Source: Bacteroidota bacterium (GTDB lineage Bacteria; Bacteroidota; Bacteroidia; AKYH767-A; OLB10). From it: a stretch of DNA of 64,000 nt. The notes under the pieces are model-generated. The model saw nothing but the letters and a program-made list of their open reading frames with translations. It was not told the origin of the DNA and did not search any database. This document shows, one piece after another, positions 33,093-58,300 of the stretch. The stretch spans positions 10,245 to 74,244 of the forward strand of contig JAHEKC010000001.1 of NCBI GenBank assembly GCA_024638565.1, read 5' to 3'. The position numbers and the translations under genes were made by a program. Within the stretch, counting starts at the first letter, position 1. Each line of letters opens with the position of its first letter.

Positions 33093-34055
33093 ATGGGCAT
33101 ATTACGACTGGAAGGCAAAGAGGCCTCCTACCTTTTCGACCCCTCGAACCCCGAAACGCTGCTGCGGGAGAACGGTAAGTTCGGGAATGTATACGCCGGC
33201 GCAAGAGAGTCAGACAAGACACCTGTGGTGATCAAGCATCTGAACCCCGAGCTGCTAAGTCACCCCATGTCACTGCTGCAGTTCCGGTTTGAGGCCGACA
33301 TGGTCCTGGATCACCCGGTGCTGAGAAATACGCTGGAATATGCGCACACCGGGAAAGACCATTTCCTGATCCAGGAGTATGTCAAGGGCTGGGAGCTGAA
33401 AGTCTTTCTCATGCAATACGAGAAATACCGCACCGTGTCTTTTGTGCTGCAGTGCATGCTCCGGATCCTGGATGCCCTTGAATACCTGCATGGGAAGGAT
33501 GTCGTGCATTGTGATATCAAGCCGTCGAATATCCTTGTGGAAGAGCCACCCAAGGGGGAGAAGGTGGACAGGCAGCATCCACCGGTCAGGCTCATCGACC
33601 TGGGAAATGCCAGGACGCCGCTTGCGCAGTTCATGACGACGGTAAGGCCGTTCTCATTTATCTACTCGCCGCCAGAACAGGTGTTGCATCATTATTCCCT
33701 GGTTTGCCCAGCCAGCGACCTTTCCGCACTCGCCATCACCACCTATGAACTGATCACGGGGAAGAATGCCTTCGGCACCTATCATCCCGAGAAACTCATG
33801 CATATGCAGGTGGCAGGCAACCTTTTGCCAAATCCCGACATCCCGGAACCGCTTTTCAGGATCCTGGCAAAGGCGTCGGCACGCATATCGTTACCAAGGC
33901 CACCCAACCAGATGAACCGTGAGGAGCATTTCAAGCTTGCGCAGGACGGGATTGCCATGCGCTACCAGTCGGCCGATGAACTCAAATCCGCGTTCCGGGA
34001 ATTCCTGGAAAGCCATCCGGCGAAAAAGGGGGTGTTCGCCAGGCTGTTCGGGTAG
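33093..34055 (+). CDS. Serine/threonine protein kinase (Hanks-type)
   Basis: The product has a Gly-rich loop region and a VIKHL lysine. The catalytic loop HCDIKPSNILV and a DLGNA (DFG-like) motif are present. Confidence 0.75.
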   Translation: MGILRLEGKEASYLFDPSNPETLLRENGKFGNVYAGARESDKTPVVIKHLNPELLSHPMSLLQFRFEADMVLDHPVLRNTLEYAHTGKDHFLIQEYVKGWELKVFLMQYEKYRTVSFVLQCMLRILDALEYLHGKDVVHCDIKPSNILVEEPPKGEKVDRQHPPVRLIDLGNARTPLAQFMTTVRPFSFIYSPPEQVLHHYSLVCPASDLSALAITTYELITGKNAFGTYHPEKLMHMQVAGNLLPNPDIPEPLFRILAKASARISLPRPPNQMNREEHFKLAQDGIAMRYQSADELKSAFREFLESHPAKKGVFARLFG

Positions 34056-34909: not shown

Positions 34910-37900
34910 TTACTTCCGGATAACAATATACCCCGTCATCGGCTTGTTCCCATCGTCGAGATCCAGGACATAATAATAGGTGCCGCCAGTAAGCTGCTTA
35001 CCGGCATTGGATCCCACGTTGGATTCGCCGCGCCAGCGGTTGTCGTAACGAGCCGACTTGTACACCAGTGCCCCCCAGCGATTATATATCCAGATCTTGA
35101 GCCTGGGATAGTGTTCGATGCCCTCGATCACGAAAAAGTCATTGAATCCGTCGTTGTTGGGACTGAATCCCGAGGGAATATTTAGGTCGTCACAGAGCAC
35201 GGTAACCAGGACCTCACCCGTGGTGCGGCAGCCGTTTGCTGCCGTAATTTCCACCTGGTAGGCGGTGGTTTGTGCCGGATGCGCCACGGGGTTTGGTGAC
35301 AGGGGGTAGTCCAGCCCTTCTTCCGGCCACCACTGGTAGGTGATGCCACCGGAGGCTTCCAGCCTGGTGGTTTCACCGGGGCAGAGAATGACATTGGGGC
35401 TTACGGCATAGTCCTCAACGGTCATGACGGTTACCTCGATTTCATCCGAGGTGAAGTTCCCGCATACACTTTCTACGCTGACCCGGTAAGTTCCTTCCTG
35501 GGGCGCAAGGTATACCTTGTCCACGGAGCCGTTCAATAATTGTTCGTCGAAATGCCACTGGTACTTGCCATCCCATACGGAATCAGCCACCAGTTCAACA
35601 AGGTCGCCCAGGCAGACCTGTGTGGGTCCTGTCGCCCGGGCTGCGAAAGTGCTCGTATCATGAACGGTGAACCGGTGCATTGCCTTGCATTGATCCGCAT
35701 CAATGACGGTCAGCTCATACTCCCCCTCGAAAATGTTCGTCAGTTTTTTTGTATTGGCGCCGTTGCTCCACTGGTAATCAAACGGGGCCCGGCCACCTGT
35801 AATTTGCGTGGAGATGGTACCCCCATTGTTGAGCAGGCAATTGGCAGGCGCTGCAATTCCTGCCACCTGGATGCCGGATGCGGTCATCCTGACTTCGATA
35901 TTTTTTGTAGTCGCGCACCCTGCAGCATCCGTGGAAGTGATGGTATAGGTACCGGCCACAAGGCTGTCTACGTCCTGGGTCGTGGCCTGGTTGCTCCACA
36001 GGTAAGTGTATGGTGCCTCGCCGGCTTCCGGCGTGATGTTGATGGCGCCGTTGCCGCCGTCGCCGCAGTTCGTTTCATCGGTCACACTGACCCCTAGCCT
36101 GAATGGCATGGCCGGCTGGATGACGGAGATTGTAACGGAACCAGTGCACTGGCCGGCGTCAGTTACAGTGACGCGGTAAACACCGGCGATCAGGCCCCCG
36201 ATGTGCTGGGTGGTGGCGCCGTTGCTCCAGCTGTACTGGTATGGCAGCGTTCCATTGGATACTTCCAGGCCTATGGATCCGTTATTGCCGCCATAACAGC
36301 TTACATGGTTCTGGGTGGTGGCGGTCAGGCTGATCGGGGCCGTGGGCTGCTGTACGGTAATGCTTTCCGTAATGGCGCAGCCATTGGCATCGGTCACGGT
36401 CACGGTATAGGCTCCTGATTTGAGACCCTGCAGGTGAGGGGAAACCGAACCGCTGTTCCAGCTCCAGGCATATGGAGGGGTTCCCCCGTTTGCCGTCATC
36501 TGTACCGCCCCGTTGGTGCCGTCGTAGCAGGTCACATGCGTGAGGGCCGTAACGTGGGTCTCAAGCATGGCCACCGGCCCGGTTACCTGGTGGCTGACGG
36601 TGGAGGTGCAGCCTTGCTGGTCGGTAACGGTCAACAGGTAAGCTCCCGCAGGGATGCCCTGGATCACAGGTGCGGTGGATCCGTTGGACCATAGGTAGCT
36701 GTATGGAGTCGTACCCCCGGAGGTTTCCGTTTCTATAAAACCATCCTGCCCGCCATGGCATGCGATGGCACCGGACTTGCTCACGGTGGCAAGGAGGGCA
36801 TCAGGCTCGGTAATCGTGAAGGATGTCGAGGCGGTGCACCCGGCATCGTCGGTAACGATTACCGCATAGGTGCCCGCAGCCAGGCCGGCCGGTGCGCCCT
36901 GTGATGACTGGTTGTTGAGACTGTAAGCATACGGTGCCGTACCGCCGGAGGCATGCAGCAATGCGGAGCCGTCCTGTCCGCCCGCGCAGGAAATCTGCTG
37001 CAGGTGGGCCACGGAGGCATCCAGTGGCTGCAAAGGTTCCGTGACCTGGCCCGTGGCGCTGGCTGTGCAGCCGCTGGCATCGGTCAGCTGGACATTGTAT
37101 GTCCCCGCTGACAGATTTGATGCTGCAGAAGCTGTTGTGCCGTTACTCCAGGCCCATGCATAAGGGGCGATTCCACCATTGGCGGAAGCGGACAATTGAC
37201 CGTCGGCACCCCCGTGGCAGCTTACCGCCTTTGTCATGGATATGGACGTGACAAGCGCGGCAGGTGATCCAATCGTGGCATTCAGGACCAAAGAGTTTCC
37301 GCCGTGGTTTACATTTACCGTGTACGTGCCGGCGGCCAAGCCCGAAACACTGGCCGTGGTTTCACCGGTGCTCCAGAGGAACAAGCTGCCGCTTGCGGCA
37401 TTGACCACTTCGGCCGTTCCGTCCGCGGCGCCATGACAGGAAATGTCCTGCGCATGCACCCCCACGCTTTTTTGCCTGACATAGATCGCGTAGGCGTATA
37501 CCTGGACCCCGTTTACCGGGCAGGCATCATCACGGAGTGTTACATTGAATACATATGGTATATTTCGTACGTGTGAGGCGTCAGGGGTCCAGCAAAAATC
37601 AATTACAGGCCGGTGATTGCTGTTGGCGGTAAGTTGTGCCCCTGCAATGGGATTGATGAATTTGATATCAATGTTTTGCGCGGGATCGCCGTCCATTGTA
37701 TTGATCTGGAAGCACAGCTGTTCGCCGGGATGTGCCTCAGCGGTGAAATCGTTCGTGCCATTGATGCCGGTGGCCTTCGGCTGCATGTTGCTGCACGCGG
37801 AGGTGTATATCTGCATATCACGGATCACGCTGCCCGCCAGCTGGCCATTCCGGTATTCATTTACACGCAGGGTGAGGATTCCGATCTGTGTCTGCCCGGC

Positions 37901-38650
37901 GGTAAAGGTAATCTGCCCGGTGGTCGTATCCAGTTCGAGCGGGGCGGAGCCCTGGAAGGGCTGTGAAGGTGAGTGGGGCGGGAAGTAAGTCACATGTGTT
38001 TGCGCACCGGTTTTCGGAGCGATAAGTTCATAAACCAGCGAATCCCCATCCTGTTCAAGTACACCGGGGTTGTAGCAGAAAGGCTGACCTATGCACACGA
38101 ATGCCACCGGATCAATGCCGAAATAGGGGGAGTTGTTTTCCGGTGCCGCCACGTTATTGAGCGTGGCCTCCACGTAGAGGTTGGAGCCGGCCGCGCAGGG
38201 ATTCTGGATGGTCGTCACAGCGCAGTTCCTGCAGCACACCTGGTAACTGAATACCCAATCTGTGCATGAGGCCGGAAGGGAAATGACCGCCTGGTAGACG
38301 AATTTCTCTATCCCGGTCTGGAAACCGCCGTTGCATGACGAGGGAACGGAAGCGCAGGGGGTGGTAATTTCGTATCCCGTACCTGGAATGCGTGCGGCCA
38401 TGGCTATGAGGTTATACCCGCACGAAGATGAGCTGTACGACACCGGGATGGCCAAGGGTGCAGATATGCCGGCACAGTCCCTGTAGAAAGTGACTTCCAC
38501 AAGGTAGCTGCCACCCCCGAGCGACCGGTAGGTGAGGTCCGCGCCGGCCGAGTGCGTGGCATGTACTTGCCGGAGCGGTGCCAGTACCAGGATGAATGCC
38601 ATGCAAACAATGACAACAGCCTGTATAGGACGACAGACACCAGTTTTCAT
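34910..38650 (-). CDS. T9SS type-B C-terminal-domain protein with ~8 SprB repeats, Ig-like modules and a Cys-rich ~230-aa N-terminal domain (gliding-motility-associated CTD family)
   Basis: There is a signal peptide. The N-terminal domain reads HSAGADLTYRSLGG...FYRDCAG...CCRNC. The repeats have the form CxGGxDG...GGTxPYxYxWSNG...TDxxGC. The C-terminus is IPSGFSPNNDGFNDFFVIEGIEHYPRLKIWIYNRWG...YYYVLDLDDGNKPMTGYIVIRK. The start could be the ATG at 38686 or 38650. Confidence 0.8.
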   Translation of the reverse strand: MKTGVCRPIQAVVIVCMAFILVLAPLRQVHATHSAGADLTYRSLGGGSYLVEVTFYRDCAGISAPLAIPVSYSSSSCGYNLIAMAARIPGTGYEITTPCASVPSSCNGGFQTGIEKFVYQAVISLPASCTDWVFSYQVCCRNCAVTTIQNPCAAGSNLYVEATLNNVAAPENNSPYFGIDPVAFVCIGQPFCYNPGVLEQDGDSLVYELIAPKTGAQTHVTYFPPHSPSQPFQGSAPLELDTTTGQITFTAGQTQIGILTLRVNEYRNGQLAGSVIRDMQIYTSACSNMQPKATGINGTNDFTAEAHPGEQLCFQINTMDGDPAQNIDIKFINPIAGAQLTANSNHRPVIDFCWTPDASHVRNIPYVFNVTLRDDACPVNGVQVYAYAIYVRQKSVGVHAQDISCHGAADGTAEVVNAASGSLFLWSTGETTASVSGLAAGTYTVNVNHGGNSLVLNATIGSPAALVTSISMTKAVSCHGGADGQLSASANGGIAPYAWAWSNGTTASAASNLSAGTYNVQLTDASGCTASATGQVTEPLQPLDASVAHLQQISCAGGQDGSALLHASGGTAPYAYSLNNQSSQGAPAGLAAGTYAVIVTDDAGCTASTSFTITEPDALLATVSKSGAIACHGGQDGFIETETSGGTTPYSYLWSNGSTAPVIQGIPAGAYLLTVTDQQGCTSTVSHQVTGPVAMLETHVTALTHVTCYDGTNGAVQMTANGGTPPYAWSWNSGSVSPHLQGLKSGAYTVTVTDANGCAITESITVQQPTAPISLTATTQNHVSCYGGNNGSIGLEVSNGTLPYQYSWSNGATTQHIGGLIAGVYRVTVTDAGQCTGSVTISVIQPAMPFRLGVSVTDETNCGDGGNGAINITPEAGEAPYTYLWSNQATTQDVDSLVAGTYTITSTDAAGCATTKNIEVRMTASGIQVAGIAAPANCLLNNGGTISTQITGGRAPFDYQWSNGANTKKLTNIFEGEYELTVIDADQCKAMHRFTVHDTSTFAARATGPTQVCLGDLVELVADSVWDGKYQWHFDEQLLNGSVDKVYLAPQEGTYRVSVESVCGNFTSDEIEVTVMTVEDYAVSPNVILCPGETTRLEASGGITYQWWPEEGLDYPLSPNPVAHPAQTTAYQVEITAANGCRTTGEVLVTVLCDDLNIPSGFSPNNDGFNDFFVIEGIEHYPRLKIWIYNRWGALVYKSARYDNRWRGESNVGSNAGKQLTGGTYYYVLDLDDGNKPMTGYIVIRK

Positions 38651-38690
38651 GGCCAGTATCGGGTTTCGATATGTTTCGCTGAACATGTGC

Positions 38691-41279
38691 TTATTTTCTA
38701 ATGACGATATAACCTGTCATTGGCTTTTTGTTATTGTTTAAATCAAGAATGTAATAGTAGGTCCCGGCAGGAACCATCTTGCCTGCCATCTCTCCACCAG
38801 TATTTGAGTAACCTGTCCAGTCATTGCGGTAATTCCTCGCCTTGTAAATGAGGCCGCCCCAGCGGTTGTAGATCCATATTTTATTATCCGGATATGCTTC
38901 GATGCCTTCGATTACAAATCCATCGTTTATGCCGTCCTGGTTGGGTGAATATCCGGAAGGCACCATGGGAGAATCGCACATGACTGAAACCGTAACCTCT
39001 CCTATGGCCTTGCAGCCATCGTCGTTTGTGACTTCCACCTTGTATACGGTGGTCTTTGGCGGTGAGGCGATGGGATCCGGCAGGGTGGCGTAATCCAGCC
39101 CGTCAGGTGGTTCCCACGCGTAATAAGTACCTCCACCCGCTTTTAGCTGAACCCGTTCCCCCGGACAAATGATCACATTGGGGCTTAACGTCATCCTTAC
39201 TTCTTCCTTTGAAGTGACATGCAGCGTATCTGAGTTGTATGTACCGCATCCGTGGCTTATAGTCACAGTATATGCACCGGCAACAGGTGTATAGAACTGC
39301 AGCCCGGTGGCACCACCGAGCGTCTGGCCGTTCAGGTACCATTGGTAAGATCCGCCGGCCACGGAGTCTGCGGTAAGGACTGCCAGTTCACCGATACACA
39401 GATCCGGGGAACCGGTGATGTTGGCGTTGAACAAGGAGGTGTCTGATACGGTGAAACTTTCAACAATCTCGCAACCTTTCTTGTCAGTCACCTTGACGGT
39501 ATATTGCCCGGCCGGCATGCCTGTGACTGTTTGTGTCGTGGCGCCCTGGTTCCACTGGAACGCATATGGTGAAGTGCCTCCCGAGGGCAAGGCGGTCACC
39601 TGGCCATAAGAGCCAGCCAGGCAATTGGCATGAACGGTAAGTTTATTGACCGTGAGATCGGAGTCAGGTTCGTGTATTGTCGTGGTGGCGCTGCCGGTAC
39701 AGCCATTCGCATCTGAAACAGTCACGGTATATGCTCCTGCTGGAATGTTTTTTATCTGCTTGGTGGCGGCACTGTTATCCCAAAAGTAGCTATAGGGTGG
39801 TGTGCCCCCGGCCGAAGAAGCAACGGCAATGCCGTCGGATCCGCCAAAGCAGGACACATGGGCTGTTGCATGGGCGTCAGGCGCAAGGGCTGGTGGTTCC
39901 GTGATCATTGCGTTGAACACGGTGGTGTCTGATTGATGCACCATAATCGCAGATTGCTGTCCCGCACCCAGGCCACTGATTGCTGCGGTGGTGGCACCAT
40001 TGCTCCAAAGGATGGAGGCGCCCGACGGTACATTGACGATAGTAGCAGATCCGTCCTGCGCCCCATGGCAGGTGATCCCTGTGACATTTATTGCGGCTGT
40101 TTTAGCGTTGACATATATTGTATACCCGAATACTAGCTCTGCATTGAACGGACAGGCGTTATCCCTGACGCTGATGGTAAAATTGTAAGGCGTTTCCCGG
40201 ACATGGGTGGCGTCGGGAGTCCAGGATACGGATACACCGGGCCTGCTGCCGCCGCCTATGCCAAACTGTGCGCCCGGTACCTGAGAGCCAATAGATGCGG
40301 AAAGGACCTGGAGTGAATCCGCATCATGTGTTTGTATGGAAGCTGATAAGGTATTGCCGGCAAGAACAACCTTGGTATAATTGTTTGTGCCGTCAAAGCC
40401 TCCGGCGATAGGCTGATGGTTGCTGCAGGGATCGGTGTACACCTGCATGTCACGCAGGACTGAACCTGCCAGTACCTGCCCGCGATACTCGGAAACCTTC
40501 AATGTGATTACCCCGATCTGTGCTTGGACGGGCGTAAACGAGAGTTGACCGGTTTGCGGGTCCAGGATGACCGGGCCGTTGGTAAGCATCGGGTTCTGCG
40601 CGGTGAGTAATGGCTGGTAGGTCGCGGTAGTGGATGCGCCTGTTCTGGGTGTAACCAACTCGAAATAAAGAGAGTCGCCGTCATCCTCCGTGACGGAGGG
40701 ATTGAAGCTGAATGGCTGGCCGGCGCAGATGATGACAATAGGATCGCGCGAGAACCGGGGAGAGTTGTTACCCGGTGCATCCAGGTTATTCAATTCAGCT
40801 TCCACAAAGAGGTTTGACCCCGCAGCGCATGGGTTTTTAAGCGTGGTGATTGCACAATTCCTGCAGCAGATCTGGTAACTGAACTTCCAGTCCGTACAGG
40901 CAGCCGGCAGGGCAATGGTCGCCTGGTAAAGGAACTTCTGGATACCGGTGAACGATCCGCCATTGCAGGTAGTGGCGGCGGTGACACAGGGCAGCGTGAT
41001 TTCCTGCCCGGTATTCTGGACCTGGATGGCCATAGCCGAAAGGCTGAAACCACAATTCACACTTTCGTATGTGAGAGGAATAGCAACCGGGGCGTTTATT
41101 CCGAGGCAATCCCTGTAAAAAGTTAATTCGACCAGGTAGTTGTTCCCTCCGAGGCTAGTGTAAGTAAGGTCAGCTCCAGCCGAGTGGGTTGCCGGACAGT
41201 ATTCCGGCCAGGCAAGCAACAAACCTGCCAGCAAGGCACAGGCAGGCCACCAGGATCTGCTATTCGGCATGTGATTCAT
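38691..41279 (-). CDS. Paralogous T9SS type-B CTD protein (862 aa) with the same Cys-rich N-terminal domain and ~4 SprB repeats
   Basis: The N-terminal domain is roughly 60% identical to that of the 34910-38650 protein (HSAGADLTYTSLGG...FYRDCLG...CCRNC). It has the same C-terminal sorting domain (...GTYYYILDLNNNKKPMTGYIVIRK). Confidence 0.8.
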   Translation of the reverse strand: MNHMPNSRSWWPACALLAGLLLAWPEYCPATHSAGADLTYTSLGGNNYLVELTFYRDCLGINAPVAIPLTYESVNCGFSLSAMAIQVQNTGQEITLPCVTAATTCNGGSFTGIQKFLYQATIALPAACTDWKFSYQICCRNCAITTLKNPCAAGSNLFVEAELNNLDAPGNNSPRFSRDPIVIICAGQPFSFNPSVTEDDGDSLYFELVTPRTGASTTATYQPLLTAQNPMLTNGPVILDPQTGQLSFTPVQAQIGVITLKVSEYRGQVLAGSVLRDMQVYTDPCSNHQPIAGGFDGTNNYTKVVLAGNTLSASIQTHDADSLQVLSASIGSQVPGAQFGIGGGSRPGVSVSWTPDATHVRETPYNFTISVRDNACPFNAELVFGYTIYVNAKTAAINVTGITCHGAQDGSATIVNVPSGASILWSNGATTAAISGLGAGQQSAIMVHQSDTTVFNAMITEPPALAPDAHATAHVSCFGGSDGIAVASSAGGTPPYSYFWDNSAATKQIKNIPAGAYTVTVSDANGCTGSATTTIHEPDSDLTVNKLTVHANCLAGSYGQVTALPSGGTSPYAFQWNQGATTQTVTGMPAGQYTVKVTDKKGCEIVESFTVSDTSLFNANITGSPDLCIGELAVLTADSVAGGSYQWYLNGQTLGGATGLQFYTPVAGAYTVTISHGCGTYNSDTLHVTSKEEVRMTLSPNVIICPGERVQLKAGGGTYYAWEPPDGLDYATLPDPIASPPKTTVYKVEVTNDDGCKAIGEVTVSVMCDSPMVPSGYSPNQDGINDGFVIEGIEAYPDNKIWIYNRWGGLIYKARNYRNDWTGYSNTGGEMAGKMVPAGTYYYILDLNNNKKPMTGYIVIRK

Positions 41280-41306: not shown

Positions 41307-44300
41307 TTATTTCCTGAGTACGATATATCCGGTACGCGGCTTGGTGCCGTCACCCAGGTTCAATACGTAGAAATACGTTCCGGCAGGCACCCGTTTTCCG
41401 ATATAAATACCGGTTACATTCGATAACCCGTCCCAGTTGTTTTTATAGCTCCTGGCCTTGTAGACCAGGTTGCCCCACCTGTTGTAAATCCAGATCATGT
41501 TGCCCGGGTAATGTTCTATTCCCTTGATGACAAAGGCATCATTGATGCCATCATCATTTGGCGAGTATCCAGACGGAATGATGAGGGTGTCGCACATGAC
41601 GGTCACGATCACCTGACCGTTTGTTTTACAGCCATGTTCGCTTGTGATTTCCACGTTGTAAGAAGTCGTCAGGGTAGGCGACGCGATAGGATTGCTGACC
41701 GTGGTAAAATCGAGCCCCGTGGCCGGACTCCACAGGTAGCTTGCACCTCCGGAGGCGGACAGCTGTGTGCTTTCGCCCGGGCAGATGATGACGTTCGGGC
41801 TCAGGCTTACGTTGGTCATGGACTGCACATTGACTTCTATGGTATCTGAATGGAACTCGCCGCACGGGTGACTGATCGAAACGGAATAAAAGCCTGCGGC
41901 CGGCGTCACGAACACAGGGTATGTGGCGCCACCGAGTATTTGTCCGTTCAGGTACCATTGGTAGGTGGCGCCGTCAATTGAGTCTGCAAGCAGAGTCACC
42001 AGGTCGCCAACGCAGACAGTCGTCGGGCCATCTGCTTTAGCATGAAATTCTGAGATGTCCCCAACCGTTACCTGGTATTCCGAGGTGCATCCATTGTCGT
42101 CAGTGACGGTAACCGTATATGTGCCCTGTGGAAGATTCGTGATTTGCTGAATGGTGCCGCCCTGGCTCCACTGGTACTGGTAGGGCGCGGTTCCACCTGA
42201 AGGGTTGGCCGTTGCCGAACCACCTGTATTCATCAGGCAGTTGGAAGGTGTGGTCGTGCCGGTAACCATTACGGATGCCGGGGGCTGAATGATGGAAGCC
42301 GTGGTAACGACCGTGCAGCCGTTGGCGTCTGTCACCGTGACGGTATAGCTTCCTGCAGGCAGCCCCGAAACATCCTCCGTGGAGGCCCCATGGCTCCATG
42401 TATAGGTATAGGGCGGGGTGCCCTGCGTTACAGTGAGGTCGATGCTGCCGTCGCTTCCATTGTGGCAGCTTACCTGCTGTGTCACCGTGGCACCCACGGA
42501 CAGCGCTCCCGCTGGCTGGGTCACCTCAACAGAATCGGTCAGCGTACATCCGTTCGCATCAGTAATTGTTACGGCATAGGTGCCGGCTGGCAGGGAAGAA
42601 ATGTCCTTTGTGGTATCCCCGCTGCTCCACTGGTAACTGTAAGGGGCCGTGCCCATGCTGGTATTCACAGTTATGGCGCCATTGGCACCTCCATAACAGC
42701 TGACCGGCTGGCTCATGGTGAGCGTTGCGTTGAGGGCCCCTGCCGGCTGGGTGATGGTAACACTGTGTGTATCCGTACAGCCGTTGGAATCTGTGATGAT
42801 AACGGTGTAGGTACCGGCCTGGAGATTCATGATGTCTTCCGTAGTCATGCCGTTTGACCATGAGTAGCTATAGGGTGGGGTTCCCATCTGGACCGTGAGG
42901 TCTATTTGGCCGTCAGATCCTGCATGACAGCTGACCTGCTGCAAAACGTTTGATGAAATCGACAGGGCGCCATTCGGCTGAGTGATTGCAACCGTTTGTA
43001 CGCCGCTACATCCGTTAGCATCTGTTACAGTCACCGTATAGGTGCCGGCAGTGAGGCTGTCGATATCTTCCGTGATTGCACCCGTGCTCCAGTTGAAATT
43101 GTAAGGAGGTGTGCCTTGTGTTACGGTAAGGTTCAAAGCACCATTATTACCATTATAACAACTTACCTGCTGAAGTACGGTGATGCCAGTGGAAAGCGCA
43201 CCTGCTGGCTGGGAAATGGATATTGCCAGCGTATCAACGCATCCATTGGCGTCGGTAACCGTTACTGAGTAATTGCCTGATGGCAGGTTACTTATATCTT
43301 CCGTGGTATCACCGGTATTCCAGGCATAGCTATATGGCGGCGTGCCCATGACCACCGTCAGGTCAATGTTGCCTGTACTGTCTGCAAAACAACCTACATT
43401 TTGGGACGAGGAGACCGTGGCATTCAGCGCACCGGCAGGCTGGGAAATCAAAGTCATAAGCGTATCGGTGCAACCATTCGTATCCGTCACGATTACGGAG
43501 TAGTTGCCCGATGCAAGGCCGGAAATGTTTTGCGTGGTCTGACCGCCACTCCAGTTGAACGAATAGGGTGGCGTACCCATGGACACGGTCAGATCAATGG
43601 AGCCATCCGAACCAGCATAACAATTTACATTTTGTGAAGCGGCAAGGGTGGCAGAAAGTGCGCCTGCGGGTTGTGAGACCACGACTGTTTGCATGGACAG
43701 GCACCCGTTGGCATCATTAACAGTTACTGTATAGGTCCCGGACGGAAGGTTGTTAATATCCTCTGTTGTAGCGCCATTGCTCCACAGGAAAGTATAAGGT
43801 GGGGTGCCACTGCTGGCTGTGAGGTTGACAGATCCGTTCGATCCTCCATGGCAGGATACATTCTGTGATATGGAAACACTCGTGGTGAGTGATCCGGGTG
43901 GCTGCGTGATGGTTGCCGAAGTCACATAAGTACAGCCATTCGCATCTGTCACGGTAACCGTGTATGTGCCTGCTGCAAGTCCAGAAAGGTCTTCACTTGG
44001 GGACCCGGTATTCCAGAGATAGGCGTATGGTGGCGTGCCACCGTTGACAGTCAGGTCAATGGAGCCGTTGTTTCCGGAGAAGCATGAAATATTGGAAGTG
44101 ACTGACGCTGTACCACTAAGAGGATTTAGCGGCTGGTTCAGCGTTAAAGTTTGCTGGCTGGTGCAGCCATTGGCATCGGTAATATTTACCGTGTAGGTAC
44201 CCGCCGTGAGTCCGGATAAATCCTTAGTTGTCGCACCGTTGCTCCAGCTGTATGAATAAGGGGTAGTGCCACCTGATACCGTTAGGCCGATGGAACCGTC

Positions 44301-47300
44301 CGTACCGGCATGGCAGTTAATATTTTGAGATGCGCTGATTGATGAAGAAAGCGTGGCCAGCGGTTCGCTTACGGATGCGGATTGCGTGGCAGTACAGCCA
44401 TTTACATCCGTGATAATTACTGTATAATTACCGGCTTGAAGGTTGGCTATATTCTGTGAGGTATTTCCGTTGCTCCATTGATAGGTATATGGAGAGGTGC
44501 CGCCATTGACGGTAAGGGATACCGCGCCATTCGATCCAGCGAAGCAGCTTACGTTCTGGAATGAAGAAACCGAGGCAGCAAGGGTTGCGGCAGGCTGGGT
44601 AATGGTGGCTGCAAGTGATGTGGTGCATCCGTTTGCATCGGTGATGACGACTGTATAGGTGCCAGAGGAAAGGCCTGTAAGATCTTCAGTCCCGGCTCCG
44701 TTATTCCAGGCAAATGTATAAGGAGGGGTGCCTTGTGTAACGGTAATATCAATAGTTCCATCCGAGCCAGCATAACAGTTTACAGGAGTGGATGAAAAGA
44801 TTGTTGCGCTGAGCGCACCTGACGGTTGTTGTATTGTCGTGGTTGCAGTGGCGGTGCAGCCGTTGGCATCGGTAATGGTGGCAGTATATGTTCCTGCCGG
44901 AAGACCGCTTAGATCCTCCGTTGCCGACCCGTTACTCCACGCTACCGTATACGGGGGTGTGCCTTCCTGGATGGTAAGGTCAATTGATCCGCTGGTCCCG
45001 CCGAAACATAATACGTTTTGTGAAGCGCTGATGGCCGCAGACAGGGGACCCGATGGTTGGGCGATAGTGACGGATAGCGCCGTCAGGCAGCCATTTGCGT
45101 CTGTGATCGTTACATTGTAGGTGCCTGTGCTGATATTCTGAAGGTCTTCAGTGGTCGCGCCGTTACTCCAGTTATAGGTGTAAGGAGGTGTGCCACCGCT
45201 GGTTGAAAGGTCAATAGAGCCGTCCGTGCCTCCAAAGCAGTTAACATTTTGTGTTGCTGAAACGGCTGACGCCAATGATGCAGCAGGCTGGGTGATGGTG
45301 ATGGACTGAGAATCTGTACATCCGTTGGCATCCGTTACGGTTACGCTGTAACTGCCGGCGGCCAGGTTAGCCTGATTTTGATTTGCAGAGCCATTTGACC
45401 ATAAGTATGTATATGGCGGTGTGCCGCCGACTACAGATAGAGATGCCGTTCCATTGCTCCCGCCAAAGCAGTTCACCTGTTGTGTGGCATTCGCACTTGC
45501 GCTGATTGCCTGGCTTGGTTCTGTTATGGTGCCTGTGACGGATGCCGAACAACCGTTTACATCTGTGATCGTCGCGGTATAGACACCTGCACTGAGGCTT
45601 TGAATGTCTTCCGTGGTGGCTCCGTTACTCCATGTATAGGCATAAGGAGGCGTACCCCCGGTAACCGTCAGGTCGATATTCCCGTCATTACCCCCGTAAC
45701 ACAATACACCCTGCGTAACCTGGATGCTCGTTGAGAGCGCACCCGCCGGCTGTGTAATCGTATCTGTAACGGTGAATGTGCAGCTATTGGCATCAGTAAT
45801 CGTGACTATGTAAATGCCTGCTGACAAATTGGATATGTCTTCCGTATTGGCTCCCGTGTTCCAGGCGTAGGAGTAAGGCGCGGTTCCACCTGTCGCGGTA
45901 AGGTCAATAGATCCGTTGTTTCCGGAAAAACAGGATATATTGGACGTAACCTGGGTTGCGCCGGAAAGTGGTGCAGCGGGTTGGCTTATCGTCGCCGATT
46001 CGGAGCTGGTACAGCCATTGGCATCGGTAACGGTGACGCTGTAAGTGCCGGCGGCAAGGCCGTTTATATCCTCTGTCGTGGATCCGTTGCTCCAGTTATA
46101 TGTGTATGCGGTCGTTCCGCCATTTACGGTTAGGTCTATTTCGCCATTATTCCAGCCAAAACAGGATACTTGTTGTATATTAATGTTTGTTGAAAGCGCG
46201 GAAGCAGGCTGGCTGACTGATGAAGAGTGAATGTACGTACAGCCATTTGCGTCTGTGATGGTGACGGTGTATGATCCTGCCGCGAGACCGGTGAGATCCT
46301 GCACGGTGTTTCCGTTGGACCAGTTGTAGGAATATGCCGGTGTGCCCCCGGTTACAGTTAGGTCTATTGCGCCGTTGCTGCCGCCGAAGCATGAAACAGC
46401 TTGTGGCGAACTGCTGGTAGCGCTCAAGGAGACGGGAGGTTCTGTCACGCTGATGGTCGAGGATGAAGTACACCCCAGGGTGTCGGTTACGGTAACAGTA
46501 TATGTTCCTGCAGGAATACTTGTCAGGTTTTGTGTTTGACTTCCGTTATTCCACTGATATGAATATGATGGCGTGCCGCCTGAGGTTAATAGCGTTATAG
46601 AAGCATTTGTTCCGCCATGACATGAAACATTCTGGGAAGAAGATATAGAGGAGGTCAGTGGTGCAGTTGGTTGGGTGATTTCGTGACTTTGAACAAGAGT
46701 ACATCCGTTGGCGTCAGTTATGGTCACCGTGTATGTACCGGCACTCAGGTTGTCAATGTTTTGTGTGGTGCTTCCCTTGCTCCACAAGAAAGTATACGGG
46801 CTGGTTCCGCCGCTGACAAACAGGTTCACGGAACCGTTGGTTCCGCCAAAGCAAGAGACATTCGGGGAGGCTGTTGTGATGGCCGACAGGGCCGCGCCCG
46901 GCTGGCTTACACCTGCAGTGATGCTTTTAGAACAGCCATTGGCGTCCGTAATGATAATTGTGTAGGTTCCGGCGCTGATTCCTGAGATGTTTTGTGAAGT
47001 GGAGCCATTGGACCATGTGAACGAATAGGGAAGGGTTCCGCCTGAAACAGTTGTATTGGCGCTACCGGTAGACCCGGAGTGGCATGCGACTGGGATGGTG
47101 GTTACACTGGCGGATAAGGTGGGAGTCGCATCGATTGTTACGGAAATAGCAGCCGTGCATGAAGCCCGGTCGGTAACGGTAACGGAATACGTGCCAGCTG
47201 ACAGGCCTGATAGATCCTCCGTGATCTGACCGTTGCTCCATTGGAACGAATATGGCGGGAAGCCGCCTGAAGGTGTTAAATCGACAGAACCCGTGTTCGT

Positions 47301-48428: not shown

Positions 48429-48452
48429 TTTGATTTGGTTGATACGTTGTAA

Positions 48453-54905: not shown

Positions 54906-55049
54906 TTCAGTTTGATTATTTGTTCACAAAACGTTATCCCGTTATACTGCCAAACCGGACCTAAAGGTTACAGGATGAATGGATTATATCATGGAGCCCT
55001 GGACAGGTGCCCGTTACGGAAAAAGTGCTCTTCGAAAGCAGAAAAAAGA

Positions 55050-55090: not shown

Positions 55091-55115
55091 TTTAAACGAA
55101 ATTGCCTTGATTAGG

Positions 55116-57320
55116 TTACTTGTTGGAAGAAAGATCTTTGGCGACCCTGATCACCCTGATTTCAGTCCTCCGGTTCTTTTGATGGTCTTCTTCTGAACAG
55201 ATTGATCCATCCGCACACTTGTTCATCAGCATCGTTTCGCCTCCCCATTCCATTTTTTCGACGACAGACCTTGAAGTGCCGTTATTGACAAGCCACTGGG
55301 TAGCGGCCTCGGCCCTGTGCCTGGAGAGTCTTTCGTTGTATGCATTTGTCCCCCTGGAATCACAATAGGAGTTCATCAGCAGGCGCACCTCGGGGTTTGC
55401 TTTTACGAACTGCAACACCTCCATCATTGTTTTGACAGCGTCTGGCCGGATATTGGATCTGTCGAAGTCATAGTAGATGATCTTGTACCAGCGGGCGAAT
55501 TTGCCCACGTCAGCACCTTTCTTCAGGTCTACGACAACCTCGAAGTCCTTGTCAATCTTCTGCCCCACGTTGGACAGTGTGACCACCTTGGGATCGTAGC
55601 CGCTTTTCATGATGATCAGCGCAATCTGCAGGTCGCGCTCAAGGGGTTGCATGTATACGCCTTTCTTGTCCGTCTTGCCCAGGGTCTTGTTCGTCTGATC
55701 AATGCCGATAACGGCATTGTGCAGCATCTTTTTCGTTTCCCTGTCGCGTACTTTCACGATCAGGTTATAAACCCGCTCCTGCTTCTTGATTTCCAGCTTG
55801 ACGAAGAAATCCTCGGACGGGAAGTAGTCTATGGTTTTGAAGTGTTCAAAGTCCCGTGAATAGGATTCCTTGGTGCCTTCGACAGTATATTCCTCGTCAT
55901 AGTCTATAGGAAACTCGAACATGGCATCTTCACCGGCAGTCATCTCCAGGACATCGTTGCTGCTGTTCCGAAGCTTTACATGTGCCATGGGGATGGGCTT
56001 GTCCGTTCCTTCCTCGACCACGATACCGCGCACCTTGAGCATGCGGCGGAAGCTGTATATATCATCATCAACCCCTTTAGACTCTCGGTTTGAGCTGAAA
56101 TAGCCGTAATGCGTCTTGGTATTGAATATGATGCCGAAGTCGTCCTCACTGGAGTTCACCGGCGCGCCCATGTTTTTCGCATCCATCCAGGTCGTGTCCT
56201 TCTGGTGCGTGTAAAAGACATCCAGTCCGCCCAGGACATCACGGCCGTTGGAAGCAAAGAGGAACGTGCCGTCAGCATGCTGGTATGGGAACAGCTCGTC
56301 ACCCTCCGTATTGATCGCTTCACCCATGTTGACAGGTGCATTCCATTCTGCGTTAGCGCTGTCACGGTCGCAGTAGTAAAGGTCCATGCCACCCTGGCCG
56401 CCCGGCATATCGGAGGTGAAATAAAGCCGGAGGTTGTCAGGCGAAACAAAGGCGTGTGCACAATTGAATTCGTCGTTGTTATACTTGAAGGGCGTGAGGT
56501 CCTTCCAGTTTCCATCCTTCATGCGGGCATGGAAGATCTTGAGCTTAACGACTGCGTCTTCACTGGTGAAGACCTTTTTCTTGACCACGTTATTTCGTGT
56601 GATATATACTTCCCCGCCATCCTGGCTGAACGCCACCGGGCCATCATTGTATTTGATCTGTACATTGTCCGAGAACGGTTCCACCTCCAGGAAGGTATTC
56701 CCTTTTCCTTTTGAGTAATACAGGTTCAGGTAGTTTTCATTGGTCCAGGAATGTTTTTTCTCAATCAGGTCTTTCGAGGGCCGTGCGGAGGAGAAAACCA
56801 TTCCCTCGTCGAAAAATGCCGGGGCAAAGTCCGCATTCGGGGAATTGATGATCAGCTTCCAGACGAAATAATTTGCCGTGTCCTTGAAGTAGGAAGGGAT
56901 ATTCTCGATCGTCTTAAGCGCGAACATCCCGCGCCTGTCGTCAGGGTTCAACTCGGCATAATCCCGGATCCAGGCTTTGGCGTCGTTGTATTTTCCGTTC
57001 TTCATCAGGGCCTGCCCGTAGTAATACTTATGGATGGGCTCATGGTCCTTGGTCTTGACCACTTCGCCATACCAGAATTCGGCCTTTTCACTGCGACCGG
57101 TCTTGCGGTAGCAATGAGCCAGCTTGACCATGGCGGCGGTGAAATCGGGATGCTTTTCCAGGATCTTCTCGTATGCCATGATGGCCTCGCTGTATGCGAG
57201 CTGGTCATACAATTCATCCGCTTTTTCCAGTTGCTTGCTCTGCCCGAATCCGTAATGCGCCACCAGTGAAAATATGGCTGTGAGCAGAATCAGGTGTGCG
57301 ATCGTCTTTTTCATGAGCAT
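55116..57320 (-). CDS. OmpA-family protein (N-terminal TPR, central beta-propeller-like repeats, C-terminal OmpA/MotB peptidoglycan-binding domain)
   Basis: The signal peptide is followed by TPR helices. Repeated Tol-type (PD40-like) motifs follow (FSPDNLRLYFTSD, FASNGRD). The C-terminal OmpA domain contains YCDSRGTNAYNERLSRHRAEA. The gene sits immediately downstream of the PorP/SprF gene. Confidence 0.8.
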   Translation of the reverse strand: MLMKKTIAHLILLTAIFSLVAHYGFGQSKQLEKADELYDQLAYSEAIMAYEKILEKHPDFTAAMVKLAHCYRKTGRSEKAEFWYGEVVKTKDHEPIHKYYYGQALMKNGKYNDAKAWIRDYAELNPDDRRGMFALKTIENIPSYFKDTANYFVWKLIINSPNADFAPAFFDEGMVFSSARPSKDLIEKKHSWTNENYLNLYYSKGKGNTFLEVEPFSDNVQIKYNDGPVAFSQDGGEVYITRNNVVKKKVFTSEDAVVKLKIFHARMKDGNWKDLTPFKYNNDEFNCAHAFVSPDNLRLYFTSDMPGGQGGMDLYYCDRDSANAEWNAPVNMGEAINTEGDELFPYQHADGTFLFASNGRDVLGGLDVFYTHQKDTTWMDAKNMGAPVNSSEDDFGIIFNTKTHYGYFSSNRESKGVDDDIYSFRRMLKVRGIVVEEGTDKPIPMAHVKLRNSSNDVLEMTAGEDAMFEFPIDYDEEYTVEGTKESYSRDFEHFKTIDYFPSEDFFVKLEIKKQERVYNLIVKVRDRETKKMLHNAVIGIDQTNKTLGKTDKKGVYMQPLERDLQIALIIMKSGYDPKVVTLSNVGQKIDKDFEVVVDLKKGADVGKFARWYKIIYYDFDRSNIRPDAVKTMMEVLQFVKANPEVRLLMNSYCDSRGTNAYNERLSRHRAEAATQWLVNNGTSRSVVEKMEWGGETMLMNKCADGSICSEEDHQKNRRTEIRVIRVAKDLSSNK

Positions 57321-57343: not shown

Positions 57344-58300
57344 TTAGAAGTAACGCGGCGTAACCACCTTGTCCTTCTCGAATGAGAAGTCGTACCCGAT
57401 GGTGAATTCATGCGTGCCACTGTTGTAATTATTAAGCTTGGTAAGCGTGTAGTCGTAAGAATATCCGAAGCGAAGCTGCTTGGTAAGCTGGTACTGGGTA
57501 AGTACCGACACGGCATCACCGGTCCTGTATGCCATGCCAAACCAGAATACCTCCTTGAACAGGGCATTAAGCGTGATATCGGCTTCCAGCGGTGCGCCGG
57601 ATACGGCAGCAACCATGAGGGAAGGCTTCATCTTCACACTTTCGTTGATGTCGAAAACGTAGGCCGAGAACAGGTAATAGTGCCAGTTCTGAAGGTTGAC
57701 CTTGTTCGCTGTCGCTTTCTGGGTCACCGGGTCTATCTTGTTTTCGAGAAACCGCGGGATAGACAAGCCGGCATAGAAACGGTCCGTATGGAAATAGGTG
57801 CCGAATCCGAAGTTGGGCATAAGCTTGTTCTGGATGTTCCTTGAGAATTCAGGATCGTTGGGATCGATGGTGATCACATCGAGCAGCTTTTCCTCCACGT
57901 TGATAATGCCACCCTGCAGTCCCATGGACAGGATGCCCTGGTCGCTGACCTGCATGTGATGGGCGTAGCTGACGAATGCCGCCGTCTGGTTGGTGACCCC
58001 TATCCTGTCGTTCAGGATGCTGATGCCCACCCCGTTCGTTTCACGGGAAAAGGGCATGTGGAAGTTGACAGTGGCGGTTTTCGGCGCTCCCTCGATGCCT
58101 ACCCACTGGTCCCTGTAAAGCAGGGAAGCGGCCGCGAAGCCCCTTGAACCTGCATAGGCCGGGTTGATGAACATCTCGTTGTTCATGTACTGTGTGAAAT
58201 GGGGCTCGTACTGGGCCTCTGCCCTTTCCGATGCCATCACACTCATGGCCAGCGCCGCTACAGCTATGATTCCTTTCCTGAAATGCTGTTTCATATACAT
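57344..58300 (-). CDS. PorP/SprF family type IX secretion system membrane protein
   Basis: The 318-aa product has a signal peptide and a beta-barrel with a C-terminal F. The motifs FNPAYAG, DQW and GAPxTxxxN are characteristic of PorP/SprF. The gene sits directly downstream of a type-B CTD gene, as sprF does relative to sprB. Confidence 0.8.
   Translation of the reverse strand: MYMKQHFRKGIIAVAALAMSVMASERAEAQYEPHFTQYMNNEMFINPAYAGSRGFAAASLLYRDQWVGIEGAPKTATVNFHMPFSRETNGVGISILNDRIGVTNQTAAFVSYAHHMQVSDQGILSMGLQGGIINVEEKLLDVITIDPNDPEFSRNIQNKLMPNFGFGTYFHTDRFYAGLSIPRFLENKIDPVTQKATANKVNLQNWHYYLFSAYVFDINESVKMKPSLMVAAVSGAPLEADITLNALFKEVFWFGMAYRTGDAVSVLTQYQLTKQLRFGYSYDYTLTKLNNYNSGTHEFTIGYDFSFEKDKVVTPRYF

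What the first reader, a model, noticed from the sequence alone, without database searches (positions are those of the whole stretch)
40589..41279. Cysteine-rich ~230-aa N-terminal domain (HSAGADLTY...FYRDC...CCRNC...CAAGSNL) shared by the two smaller CTD proteins; first copy, in the 862-aa protein
Seen in sequence: both smaller proteins begin, right after the signal peptide, with a conserved domain containing at least 10 cysteines in fixed positions (xTHSAGADLTYxSLGGxxYLVExTFYRDCxGIxAP...CNGGxxTGIxKFxYQAxIxLPAxCTDWxFSYQxCCRNCAxTTxxNPCAAGSNLxVEAxLNN..NNSPxF). I do not recognise it. It is a second head type attached to the same repeat-plus-CTD chassis, which implies modular tip swapping within the locus.
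Basis: partly seen in the sequence, partly recalled or inferred. Interest (0 to 1): 0.5.

Follow-up and report, generated by a model that had tools for sequence, protein, structure and literature searches.

The report
Uncurated disulfide-locked head of T9SS adhesins
The cysteine-rich stretch is real: it is the first domain of a three-domain, roughly 365-residue head at the free end of Bacteroidota surface fibres, and it belongs to a very large family (over 10,000 sequence clusters) that no curated database or solved structure describes and whose binding target is unknown.

Summary
The 862-aa (38691..41279, minus) and 1258-aa (34910..38686, minus) proteins share an N-terminal region with ten cysteines in identical positions. 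The "~230-aa domain" is really signal peptide + domain D1 + half of D2. The conserved unit is a ~365-aa head of three β-sandwiches (AlphaFold pLDDT 95.6, pTM 0.92): Cys-rich Ig-like D1, a cadherin-like domain (D2, by inference) and D3.

No Pfam, NCBIfam or PDB entry matches it, even at permissive thresholds, and fold searches give only generic Ig-like or cadherin hits. Yet a D1 profile finds 10,287 cluster representatives. In 147 of the best 150, D1 starts right after the signal peptide. Full-length relatives carry type-A or type-B T9SS tails behind SprB or PKD stalks.

Cysteine co-occurrence pairs all 12 head cysteines, including a D1–D3 pair and a self-contained adjacent CC pair, probably a vicinal disulfide. 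Signal-peptidase statistics put the family's conserved His at mature residue 2.

The locus encodes a cysteine-free PorP/SprF-like carrier and a PorE-like anchor, which favours a static fibre with this head at its free end. The ligand is unknown.

"Second head type on a shared chassis" is supported. Recent tip swapping within the locus is not.

The parts
41190..41279 (-). Sec signal peptide of the 862-aa protein (aa 1-30), with predicted signal peptidase I cleavage after Ala30, so the mature protein starts Thr31-His32
   Evidence: In 204 family members the residue two before the conserved Ala is A/S/V/L/T/I/G/C in 202 and the Ala itself is present in 199. This fits the (-3,-1) rule only if cleavage follows that Ala.
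40770..41189 (-). D1 (aa 31-170): the Cys-rich seven-strand Ig-like beta-sandwich that the finding is about, with motifs [ST]-H-x-x-G-A-D-L-T-Y, F-Y-R-D-C, C-N-G-G, D-W and C-C-R-N-x-A-I-T-T
40428..40769 (-). D2 (aa 171-284): N-N-S-P-x-F linker plus the probable cadherin-like beta-sandwich, with G-D-S-L invariant in the 60-sequence alignment (preceding Asp >=90%) and an E-Y-R-x-G...R-D motif. The finding's coordinates end in the middle of this domain.
40101..40427 (-). D3 (aa 285-393): third beta-sandwich of the head. It carries Cys376, the predicted disulfide partner of Cys98 in D1.
   Evidence: Model. Cys69/Cys347 (head numbering) co-occur in 221 sequences, with 0 having only C69 and 3 only C347, out of 230 full heads. 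Faint Big_9 hit only.
39444..40100 (-). Short stalk of SprB-type repeats (aa ~394-612)
   Evidence: PF13573 SprB, 51.4 bits against a cutoff of 28, 2 stretches. The repeat pattern CxGxxxG...GGxxPYxYxW...G.Y.V.V.D..GC is visible.
38964..39443 (-). Pre-CTD Ig-like region (aa ~613-772) shared by all five cargo proteins of the locus
   Evidence: Sub-threshold Ig_7, BiPBP_C and PKD-like hits. 44-63% identity among the five proteins.
38691..38963 (-). Type-B T9SS C-terminal sorting domain (CHU_C, aa 773-862) plus stop codon
   Evidence: PF13585, 94.4 bits against a cutoff of 27. TIGR04131, 50 bits against 35.
37469..38560 (-). Second copy of the three-domain head, in the 1258-aa paralogue (aa 43-406)
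   Evidence: BLASTP. 56% identity over 364 aa. D1 profile E 8.6e-54.
57344..58300 (-). PorP/SprF-like carrier protein (318 aa), the likely shared shuttle and anchor for the five type-B cargo proteins. It contains no cysteine.
   Evidence: PF11751, 280 bits. Translation shows no Cys, so there is no SprF-type Cys-x-Cys tail.
55116..57320 (-). PorE-like protein (734 aa): TPR + PD40 + CarboxypepD_reg + OmpA_C
   Evidence: Pfam hits. The same four-domain layout is described for PorE in the abstract of PMC12773672.

Best explanation
The finding is the first domain of a three-domain, ~365-residue head at the N-terminal end of a T9SS-exported, C-terminally anchored surface fibre, so it sits at the cell-distal end.

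Proposed mechanism:
1. The protein crosses the inner membrane by Sec. Signal peptidase I cuts after Ala30, leaving Thr-His as the new N-terminus.
2. In the periplasm the head folds into three tightly packed beta-sandwiches, locked by six predicted disulfides. In head numbering (Ala30 = residue 1) these are 29-76, 47-99, 113-122 and the adjacent pair 109-110 within D1; 156-256, which brackets D2; and 69-347, which staples D3 to D1.
3. The type-B C-terminal domain takes the folded protein through the T9SS translocon onto a PorP/SprF-like carrier.
4. That carrier has no cysteine, so it lacks the twin-Cys tail that links SprF to the gliding track, and it is encoded next to a PorE-like OmpA-domain protein. 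The fibre is therefore most likely held in a static, cell-wall-tethered complex rather than driven along the gliding track.
5. A short SprB-repeat stalk holds the head away from the cell, where it acts as the binding module for a ligand that is still unknown.

What is shown and what is inferred: the domain architecture, family size, N-terminal position, absence from curated libraries, cysteine co-occurrence and gene context are shown. The disulfide geometry, the static anchoring and the adhesive role are inferred.
For: Fold and compactness: pLDDT 95.6, pTM 0.92, three all-beta domains.

Position: D1 starts at residue <=45 in 147 of the 150 best of 10,287 profile hits, and directly after the signal peptide in the aligned homologues.

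Modularity: among 30 full-length proteins (the two window proteins plus 28 from other genomes), 21 have CHU_C tails and the other nine end in type-A-style tails, with SprB repeats in 25 and PKD in 10. Minimal members of ~370-470 aa are head plus CTD only, so the head works as an autonomous unit.

Disulfides: co-occurrence is 29/76 299 both, 0 and 3 single; 109/110 274 both, 3 single, varying independently of 29/76 (26 and 3 sequences have one pair without the other); 47/99 phi 0.88; 113/122 phi 0.86; 156/256 phi 0.97; 69/347 phi 0.81. P0071 has only the CC pair in the whole protein. Every predicted intra-D1 pair joins positions that lie at the same end of an alternating seven-strand sandwich, using the strand boundaries.

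Anchoring: CHU_C; PorP/SprF-like and PorE-like genes in the same-strand array; no Cys in the carrier. Cargo, PorP-like and PorE-like genes recur together in related loci.

Literature: type-B substrates stay bound to dedicated PorP/SprF carriers; operons with a PorE homologue are proposed to form static complexes; highly similar CTDs can share a shuttle (PMC12618676). The SprF Cys-x-Cys tail is needed for the link to the track (PMC12635249). [quoted passage not shown]
Against: No ligand, binding assay or expression data exist for any member.

The most conserved D1 motifs (His3, YRDC, CNGG, CCRN) lie at the end of D1 that, judging from the C69-C347 co-occurrence, abuts D3. They may be conserved for head architecture rather than for ligand binding.

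Fold matches are generic, so the fold gives no functional clue.

I could not read the model coordinates, so no S-S distance was checked.

The PorP/SprF-like gene is not directly downstream of the 862-aa gene. It follows another cargo gene, three genes upstream of the 862-aa gene, so sharing of the carrier is inferred from 61-82% CTD identity.

The static-versus-mobile rule comes from a single model organism.
Confidence: 0.62

Rival explanations
1. The head is a structural cap or folding nucleus, not a ligand-binding module. In this view a rigid, disulfide-locked N-terminal knob starts or protects folding of the fibre in the periplasm, or caps the stalk, and has no specific partner.
For: The best-conserved residues cluster at the predicted D1-D3 interface. 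The head is unusually rigid (pTM 0.92) and heavily cross-linked. Mean conservation is similar in all three domains (entropy 1.86, 1.77 and 2.07), with no obviously hypervariable tip.
Against: Minimal proteins consist of only head plus CTD, so there the head has no stalk to cap and must itself be the displayed function. Genomes keep 2-4 diverged copies, which is what diversified binding specificities would look like. The beta-C/beta-D face of D1 is clearly more variable (entropy 2.2-2.55).
Confidence: 0.18
2. The head is a metal-binding, redox-active or catalytic tip. The conserved His at mature residue 2, together with the CC-R-N motif, would form a metal or redox site, for example a Cu or Zn site or a vicinal-disulfide switch.
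For: His3 is present in at least 90% of sequences in the unbiased alignments, and Gly6 is similarly conserved. The CC pair is gained and lost as a unit and is followed by a highly conserved Arg (>=90% in every alignment; invariant in the 14-, 9- and 30-sequence sets). By strand topology, His3 and CCRN lie at the same end of D1. Vicinal disulfides can act as switches in a force-bearing adhesive protein (VWF, PMC5834005).
Confidence: 0.1
3. This is recent cassette-like tip swapping within this locus, the first reader's evolutionary reading: heads are exchanged between neighbouring cargo genes by recombination across the shared repeats and CTD.
For: Two head types sit on a chassis whose CTDs are 61-82% identical. 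There are long tandem arrays of near-identical SprB repeats. In the closest related locus (L001) a gene with this head type directly follows PorE, whereas in the window the gene in that position has the other head type.
Against: Heads of the same type are only 45-52% identical, no closer than the chassis. No segment of near-identity between genes was seen that would mark a recent exchange. No invertase or recombinase was looked for or noticed next to the array.
Confidence: 0.1

Closest known systems
SprB / SprF gliding adhesin system of Flavobacterium johnsoniae
   Same: Sec signal peptide, SprB repeats (PF13573), a type-B CHU_C sorting domain, and dependence on a PorP/SprF-family carrier encoded in the locus.
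   Different: Far smaller (862 or 1258 aa against ~6,500). The carrier has no Cys-x-Cys tail, which SprF needs for its disulfide link to GldK and for movement (PMC12635249). A PorE-like gene is present, which mobile substrates lack (PMC12618676). Whether SprB has this head was not tested.
Static type-B adhesin operons (cargo + SprF-like shuttle + PorE homologue), e.g. Fjoh_3952/3951/3950 and P. gingivalis PG1035/PorP/PorE
   Same: The same three gene types lie on one strand, and the arrangement recurs in relatives. The literature proposes a static, cell-wall-anchored complex (PMC12618676; PMC9143113).
   Different: Here one PorP/PorE pair is accompanied by five cargo genes, one upstream and four downstream. 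The heads of the F. johnsoniae and P. gingivalis proteins were not compared.
GhpA grappling hook of Aureispira (GhpA + GhpB PorP homologue + GhpC PorE homologue)
   Same: [quoted passage not shown]
Cadherin / protocadherin extracellular (EC) domains
   Different: No cadherin Pfam model matches, even at E<=10. The domain is single rather than a tandem array. Calcium binding was not tested.
Tip (adhesive) domains of bacterial fibrillar adhesins
   Same: Overall logic: anchor, repetitive stalk, distal non-repeat module (concept as in PMC8286594, seen).
   Different: Polarity is reversed compared with many Gram-positive adhesins, because the anchor is a C-terminal T9SS signal. The tip family here is absent from the curated adhesive-domain sets tested (Pfam, NCBIfam).

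Membership tests
T9SS type-B CTD cargo (CHU_C / TIGR04131) | C-terminal CHU_C / Bac_Flav_CTERM domain above the curated cutoff | tested here: met
   PF13585, 94.4 bits (cutoff 27), aa 773-860. TIGR04131, 50 bits (cutoff 35).
T9SS type-B CTD cargo (CHU_C / TIGR04131) | N-terminal Sec signal peptide with a signal peptidase I site | tested here: met
   Hydrophobic leader followed by C-P-A|T-H. Family-wide (-3,-1) statistics.
T9SS type-B CTD cargo (CHU_C / TIGR04131) | PorP/SprF-family carrier gene in the locus | tested here: met
   PF11751, 280 bits, at 57344..58300. It is not immediately downstream of this gene.
T9SS type-B CTD cargo (CHU_C / TIGR04131) | Actual T9SS-dependent export and surface anchoring | not testable with these tools
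   Needs genetics and fractionation in the source organism or a relative.
SprB-type mobile gliding adhesin | SprB repeats | tested here: met
   PF13573, 51.4 bits (862 aa) and 184.6 bits (1258 aa).
SprB-type mobile gliding adhesin | Carrier with a conserved Cys-x-Cys C-tail that disulfide-links to GldK (PMC12635249) | tested here: not met
   The 318-aa PorP/SprF-like protein contains no cysteine.
SprB-type mobile gliding adhesin | Operon without a PorE-like gene (PMC12618676) | tested here: not met
   A TPR + PD40 + CarboxypepD_reg + OmpA protein lies directly after the carrier gene.
Any curated domain family for the head (Pfam-A 2025, NCBIfam 20.0) | HMM match to aa 31-393 | tested here: not met
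   Nothing on the head in whole-protein scans apart from a faint, sub-threshold Big_9 hit over D3. Zero hits at E<=10 for D1, D2 and D3 scanned separately, and none on the heads of five distant members.
Solved-structure relatives | Sequence or profile match to a PDB chain, or a specific fold match | tested here: not met
Ig-like / E-set beta-sandwich fold (D1) | Seven-strand antiparallel sandwich superposable on Ig-like domains | tested here: met
Cadherin-like domain (D2) | EC-domain fold | tested here: met
Cadherin-like domain (D2) | Cadherin sequence-family membership and calcium-binding motifs | tested here: inconclusive
   No cadherin HMM hit at E<=10. The conserved D-G-D-S-L and N-x-S-P-x-F motifs resemble cadherin calcium motifs but are not identical to them.
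Histidine-brace copper proteins (LPMO, CopC, YcnI-like) | His as residue 1 of the mature protein | tested here: not met
   Cleavage-site statistics place the His at mature residue 2.
Histidine-brace copper proteins (LPMO, CopC, YcnI-like) | A second conserved metal-ligand His, or a fold match | tested here: not met
GhpA grappling-hook protein | Cargo + PorP homologue + PorE homologue gene cluster | tested here: met
   compared.
GhpA grappling-hook protein | ~1,400-aa N-terminal hook resembling antigen I/II adhesins; heptameric stem | tested here: not met

The most novel reading that the evidence does not exclude
The conserved cluster at one end of D1 would be a functional metal- or redox-sensitive site shared by thousands of Bacteroidota surface proteins, not just scaffolding. 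The cluster comprises the new N-terminus Ser/Thr-His created by signal-peptide cleavage, YRDC, CNGG, and the self-contained adjacent Cys-Cys followed by a highly conserved Arg-Asn. One possibility is a vicinal-disulfide switch that changes the head's binding state with redox conditions or mechanical load. That would make this a new class of regulated adhesin tip.
Probability: 0.1. Interest if true: 0.7.

Novelty: new variant of a known kind. Interest (0 to 1): 0.4.

Why it matters
T9SS cargo with type-B tails are thought to be adhesins, but what their free ends bind is almost entirely unknown.

This head is one of the commonest N-terminal modules on such proteins, with over 10,000 clusters at 50% identity across Saprospiraceae, Chitinophagales, Flavobacteriales, Cyclobacteriaceae and many unclassified Bacteroidota. 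It nevertheless has no entry in Pfam, NCBIfam or the PDB, so these proteins are annotated only by their stalk or tail.

This report defines the family's boundaries, conserved motifs and probable disulfide map, and identifies small natural versions (head plus CTD, ~370-470 aa). That gives a tractable target for structure determination and ligand screening, and enough information to build a family model that would improve annotation of thousands of environmental genomes. The predicted conserved vicinal Cys-Cys pair is a rare feature that deserves direct testing.

Tried and rejected
- AFDB fold search: afdb50 is not installed, so there are no UniProt-level structural neighbours.
- The look-up of encoding contigs for the 862-aa protein: no record. 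The source is known only as an unnamed NCBI contig of 93,633 bp.
- The search for related loci with the 60-sequence alignment failed because it was too diverse. A 14-sequence alignment worked.
- LPMO or CopC-like histidine brace: rejected, because the His is mature residue 2, there is no second conserved His and there is no fold match.
- ATCUN (X-X-His) reading, with cleavage before the conserved Ala: rejected, because the residue before that Ala is mostly Y, K, F, N, Q or R, which is incompatible with the -1 position of a signal peptidase I site.
- Thioester, isopeptide or ester cross-link domains of Gram-positive adhesins: considered from memory only. No Lys or Gln is among the residues conserved at >=90% in D1. 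Not pursued.
- TANFOR N-terminal domain of Bacteroidota polymorphic toxins (PMC7073777, seen): no NCBIfam hit, so not related.
- Relationship between the two head types in the window: the D1 and full-head profiles hit the giant proteins only through their SprB repeats.
- Direct disulfide mapping on the AlphaFold model: not possible, because coordinates are not exposed. Cysteine co-occurrence was used instead.
- Literature searches for any description of this head: nothing found.
Full report
**1. What is at the coordinates**

The interval 40589..41279 is the 5' end of an 862-aa ORF on the minus strand (38691..41279). The next gene downstream on that strand is a 1258-aa ORF (34910..38686). BLASTP between the two gives 45% identity overall, with a continuous high-identity block from the signal peptide to about residue 395 of the shorter protein. 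Identity is 56% over the 364-aa head and 69% over the first 147 residues.

Below I use head numbering, in which Ala30 of the precursor is residue 1. The 862-aa protein has Cys at 29, 47, 69, 76, 99, 109, 110, 113, 122 and 156 inside the finding's coordinates, and further Cys at 256 and 347. All ten within the finding are matched in the paralogue.

The interval is not one domain, however. It contains the signal peptide, one complete domain and the first half of a second.

**2. Anatomy**

An AlphaFold2 model of residues 1-364, built on a 60-sequence alignment, is very confident: pLDDT 95.6, pTM 0.92, with 346 of 364 residues at pLDDT >=90. It is all-beta and divides into three sandwiches:
- D1, about residues 1-141, seven strands.
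- D2, about residues 146-255.
- D3, about residues 256-364.

A D1-only model agrees (pLDDT 92.3). After the head come SprB repeats, an Ig-like region and a CHU_C type-B T9SS sorting domain.

**3. Is the head a known family?**

No, as far as these tools can tell:
- Pfam-A and NCBIfam give nothing on residues 30-393 of either paralogue except a faint Big_9 hit.
- D1, D2 and D3 scanned separately at E<=10 give zero Pfam families, and five distant members have hits only on their tails.
- phmmer against all PDB sequences gives no hit at E<=10. Profiles of D1 and of the whole head give only noise.
- Foldseek against 350,542 PDB chains gives nothing at E<=1e-3, with a best query TM-score of 0.41.

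Cadherin matches appear only when D2 and D3 are included, so they come from one of those two domains. The motifs point to D2 (my inference): G-D-S-L (172-175) is invariant across the 60-sequence alignment, and the Asp before it and the preceding N-x-S-P-x-F linker are conserved at >=90%.

**4. Family size and position**

A word-indexed search found 94 clusters. Those that carry a source name are all labelled Bacteroidota, Bacteroidia or Bacteroidales, and their precomputed Pfam domains cover only stalks and tails (SprB, PKD, CHU_C, Por_Secre_tail).

An exhaustive HMMER search with a D1-only profile against 1.84 billion cluster representatives found 10,287 proteins at E<=1e-3, 6,716 at E<=1e-10 and 848 at E<=1e-30. 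In 147 of the best 150, D1 begins at residue 45 or earlier. One of those hits, P0119, is 100% identical to the window protein. Its source is an unnamed NCBI contig of 93.6 kb.

The best 80 are nearly all titled as uncultured Bacteroidota (Bacteroidia, Flavobacteriales, Chitinophagales, Saprospiraceae); two are titled 'uncultured Bifidobacterium sp.', probably mislabelled. The best identity is 49%, and several genomes carry 2-4 copies.

A profile of the divergent 'ATHI[VI]GGE' branch found 704 more clusters at E<=1e-10, in Cyclobacteriaceae, Lewinellaceae, Crocinitomicaceae and others. These are named only 'hypothetical', 'PKD domain-containing' or 'T9SS type A sorting domain-containing'.

**5. 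Modularity**

I scanned 30 full-length proteins: the two window proteins and 28 from other genomes.
- 21 carry CHU_C tails. The other nine end in type-A-style tails.
- Por_Secre_tail matched 12 proteins; the excess over nine is probably secondary matches inside SprB repeats.
- 25 have SprB repeats and 10 have PKD domains.
- Sizes range from ~800 to over 2,300 aa.
- Natural mini-proteins of ~370-470 aa consist of signal peptide, head and CTD only.

The head is therefore an autonomous, N-terminal module that has been combined with different stalks and both anchoring routes.

**6. The N-terminus**

In 204 members, the residue two positions before the conserved Ala is A/S/V/L/T/I/G/C in 202 cases. 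The residue immediately before the Ala is mostly Y, K, F, N, Q or R, and the Ala itself is present in 199. This fits the signal peptidase I (-3,-1) rule only if cleavage follows the Ala.

The mature protein therefore starts [Ser/Thr]-His. The His is present in at least 90% of sequences in the unbiased alignments and is residue 2 of the mature chain. That excludes both a histidine brace (which needs His1) and an ATCUN motif (which needs His3).

**7. Disulfide map by co-occurrence**

Model coordinates are not exposed, so I used gain and loss patterns of cysteines.

In 307 distinct D1 sequences:
- C29 and C76 occur together in 299, with 0 and 3 single occurrences.
- C109 and C110 occur together in 274, with 3 single occurrences.
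- The two pairs vary independently. 26 sequences have 29/76 without the CC pair, 3 have the CC pair without 29/76, and in two sequences the CC pair is the only Cys in D1.

In 230 full heads:
- 47-99, phi 0.88.
- 113-122, phi 0.86.
- 156-256, phi 0.97. This pair brackets D2.
- 69-347, phi 0.81 (221 together, 0 and 3 single). This is a D1-D3 staple.
- Other subfamilies add 13-141, 162-218, 283-323 and 337-358.

P0071, a complete 467-aa member, has only two cysteines in the whole protein, and they are the adjacent CC.

This accounts for all 12 head cysteines of the 862-aa protein as six pairs. As a consistency check, using the strand boundaries and the alternating strand direction of an Ig-like sandwich, each predicted intra-D1 pair joins positions at the same end of the sandwich. 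Positions 47 and 99 are at one end. Positions 29, 76, 109, 110, 113 and 122 are at the other.

The simplest reading of the CC unit is a vicinal disulfide. Free thiols, metal binding or an intermolecular bond are not excluded.

**8. Conservation pattern**

The least variable blocks of D1 are residues 1-10 (A-[ST]-H-x-x-G-A-D-L-T), 21-30 (F-Y-R-D-C) and 101-120 (D-W...C-C-R-N-x-A-I-T-T). The most variable are residues 31-60 (strands C and D) and 121-130.

By strand topology, His3, YRDC, CNGG and CCRN lie at the same end of D1 as C69, and C69 co-varies with C347 of D3. That conserved end may therefore be the D1-D3 interface rather than a ligand site. The variable C/D face is an alternative candidate for ligand contact. 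This part is inference.

**9. Locus and anchoring**

On the minus strand the gene order is as follows:
- A SprB-repeat/CHU_C protein of more than 1,861 aa, cut by the window end.
- A PorP/SprF-like protein (PF11751, 280 bits).
- A protein with TPR + PD40 + CarboxypepD_reg + OmpA domains, which is the PorE layout.
- Four CHU_C cargo genes of 2150, 2373, 862 and 1258 aa, separated from one another by gaps of 4-27 nt.

The five CTDs are 61-82% identical.

The literature says the following:
- Type-B substrates remain bound to dedicated PorP/SprF carriers.
- Operons that include a PorE homologue are proposed to form static, cell-wall-anchored complexes, whereas mobile substrates such as SprB lack a PorE gene.
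- Very similar CTDs can share a shuttle (PMC12618676).
- SprF needs a C-terminal Cys-x-Cys to form its disulfide link to GldK and move (PMC12635249).

The window's carrier has no cysteine at all. Cargo, PorP-like and PorE-like genes recur together in related loci. Aureispira GhpA, with GhpB (a PorP homologue) and GhpC (a PorE homologue), is an imaged precedent in which the N-terminal module is the distal, prey-binding end. I infer a static fibre with this head at its tip.

**10.

Two head types on one chassis is correct. Heads are 52% (862/1258) and 45% (2150/2373) identical within a type and about 20% across types. The D1 and full-head profiles touch the giant proteins only through their SprB repeats.

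Recent swapping within the locus is not shown. Same-type heads are no more similar than the chassis, and no near-identical segment was seen. The closest related locus, L001, has a gene with this head type directly after PorE, where the window has the other type. That shows array content differs between relatives, but it does not show how the difference arose.

**11. Verdict**

This is a real, very widespread but uncurated N-terminal head module of T9SS surface proteins. It has an Ig-like, cadherin-like and Ig-like architecture, a probable six-disulfide lock that includes a rare adjacent Cys-Cys unit, and a conserved His at mature residue 2.

The kind of system is known. The domain family and its features have not been described in the libraries and papers available here. 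An adhesive function is the most likely role but is untested.

Noticed in passing
window 48001-56000: G+C drops to 0.48-0.49 over the 2150-aa cargo gene and part of the PorE-like gene, compared with 0.52-0.59 on both sides. This could mark a different origin or age for that cargo gene.
   Followed up: no
window 41307-48428 and 48453-54905 (minus strand), first ~370 aa of each: The two giant cargo proteins share a different N-terminal head (45% identity to each other, ~20% to this head). The D1 and full-head profiles do not hit it, and no Pfam family had its best stretch there. It may be another uncurated head family.
   Followed up: partly
window 57344-58300 (minus strand): [quoted passage not shown]
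   Followed up: yes
L001:2663-7086 (Bacteroidia bacterium SJ183): This locus has the closest PorP-like (E 2.7e-150) and PorE-like (E 0) relatives of the window's genes. They are followed directly by a gene carrying this head type, whereas in the window the gene after PorE carries the other head type. The content of the cargo array differs between relatives.
   Followed up: partly
L002, L006, L017, L020, L028, L040, L051, L064: The order cargo, then PorP-like, then PorE-like on one strand recurs downstream of type-B members of this head family.
   Followed up: partly
L018, L026; P0297: MAG records titled 'uncultured Bifidobacterium sp.' and 'Limisphaerales bacterium' encode this Bacteroidota-type T9SS cargo. 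They are probably mislabelled or misbinned contigs.
   Followed up: no
P0071 (467 aa): A complete mini-member (signal peptide, three-domain head, type-A CTD) has only two cysteines in the whole protein, the adjacent CC of the CCRN motif. It would be an ideal test case for a vicinal disulfide.
   Followed up: partly
window 33093-34055 (plus strand): A Ser/Thr protein kinase gene (Pkinase, E 6.7e-27) converges on the 3' end of the 1258-aa cargo gene.
   Followed up: no
window 38650-38686 (minus strand), start of the 1258-aa ORF: The listed ATG start gives a 43-residue leader. Met13 (MKTGVCRPIQAVVIVCMAFILVLAPLRQVHA|TH) would give a more typical signal peptide, so the true protein may be 1246 aa.
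   Followed up: no
full-length relatives in alignment A5: PF23585 (DUF7137) matches 13 of the 30 full-length proteins at E<=1e-5 but not the 862-aa window protein. Where it matches within those proteins was not looked up.
   Followed up: no
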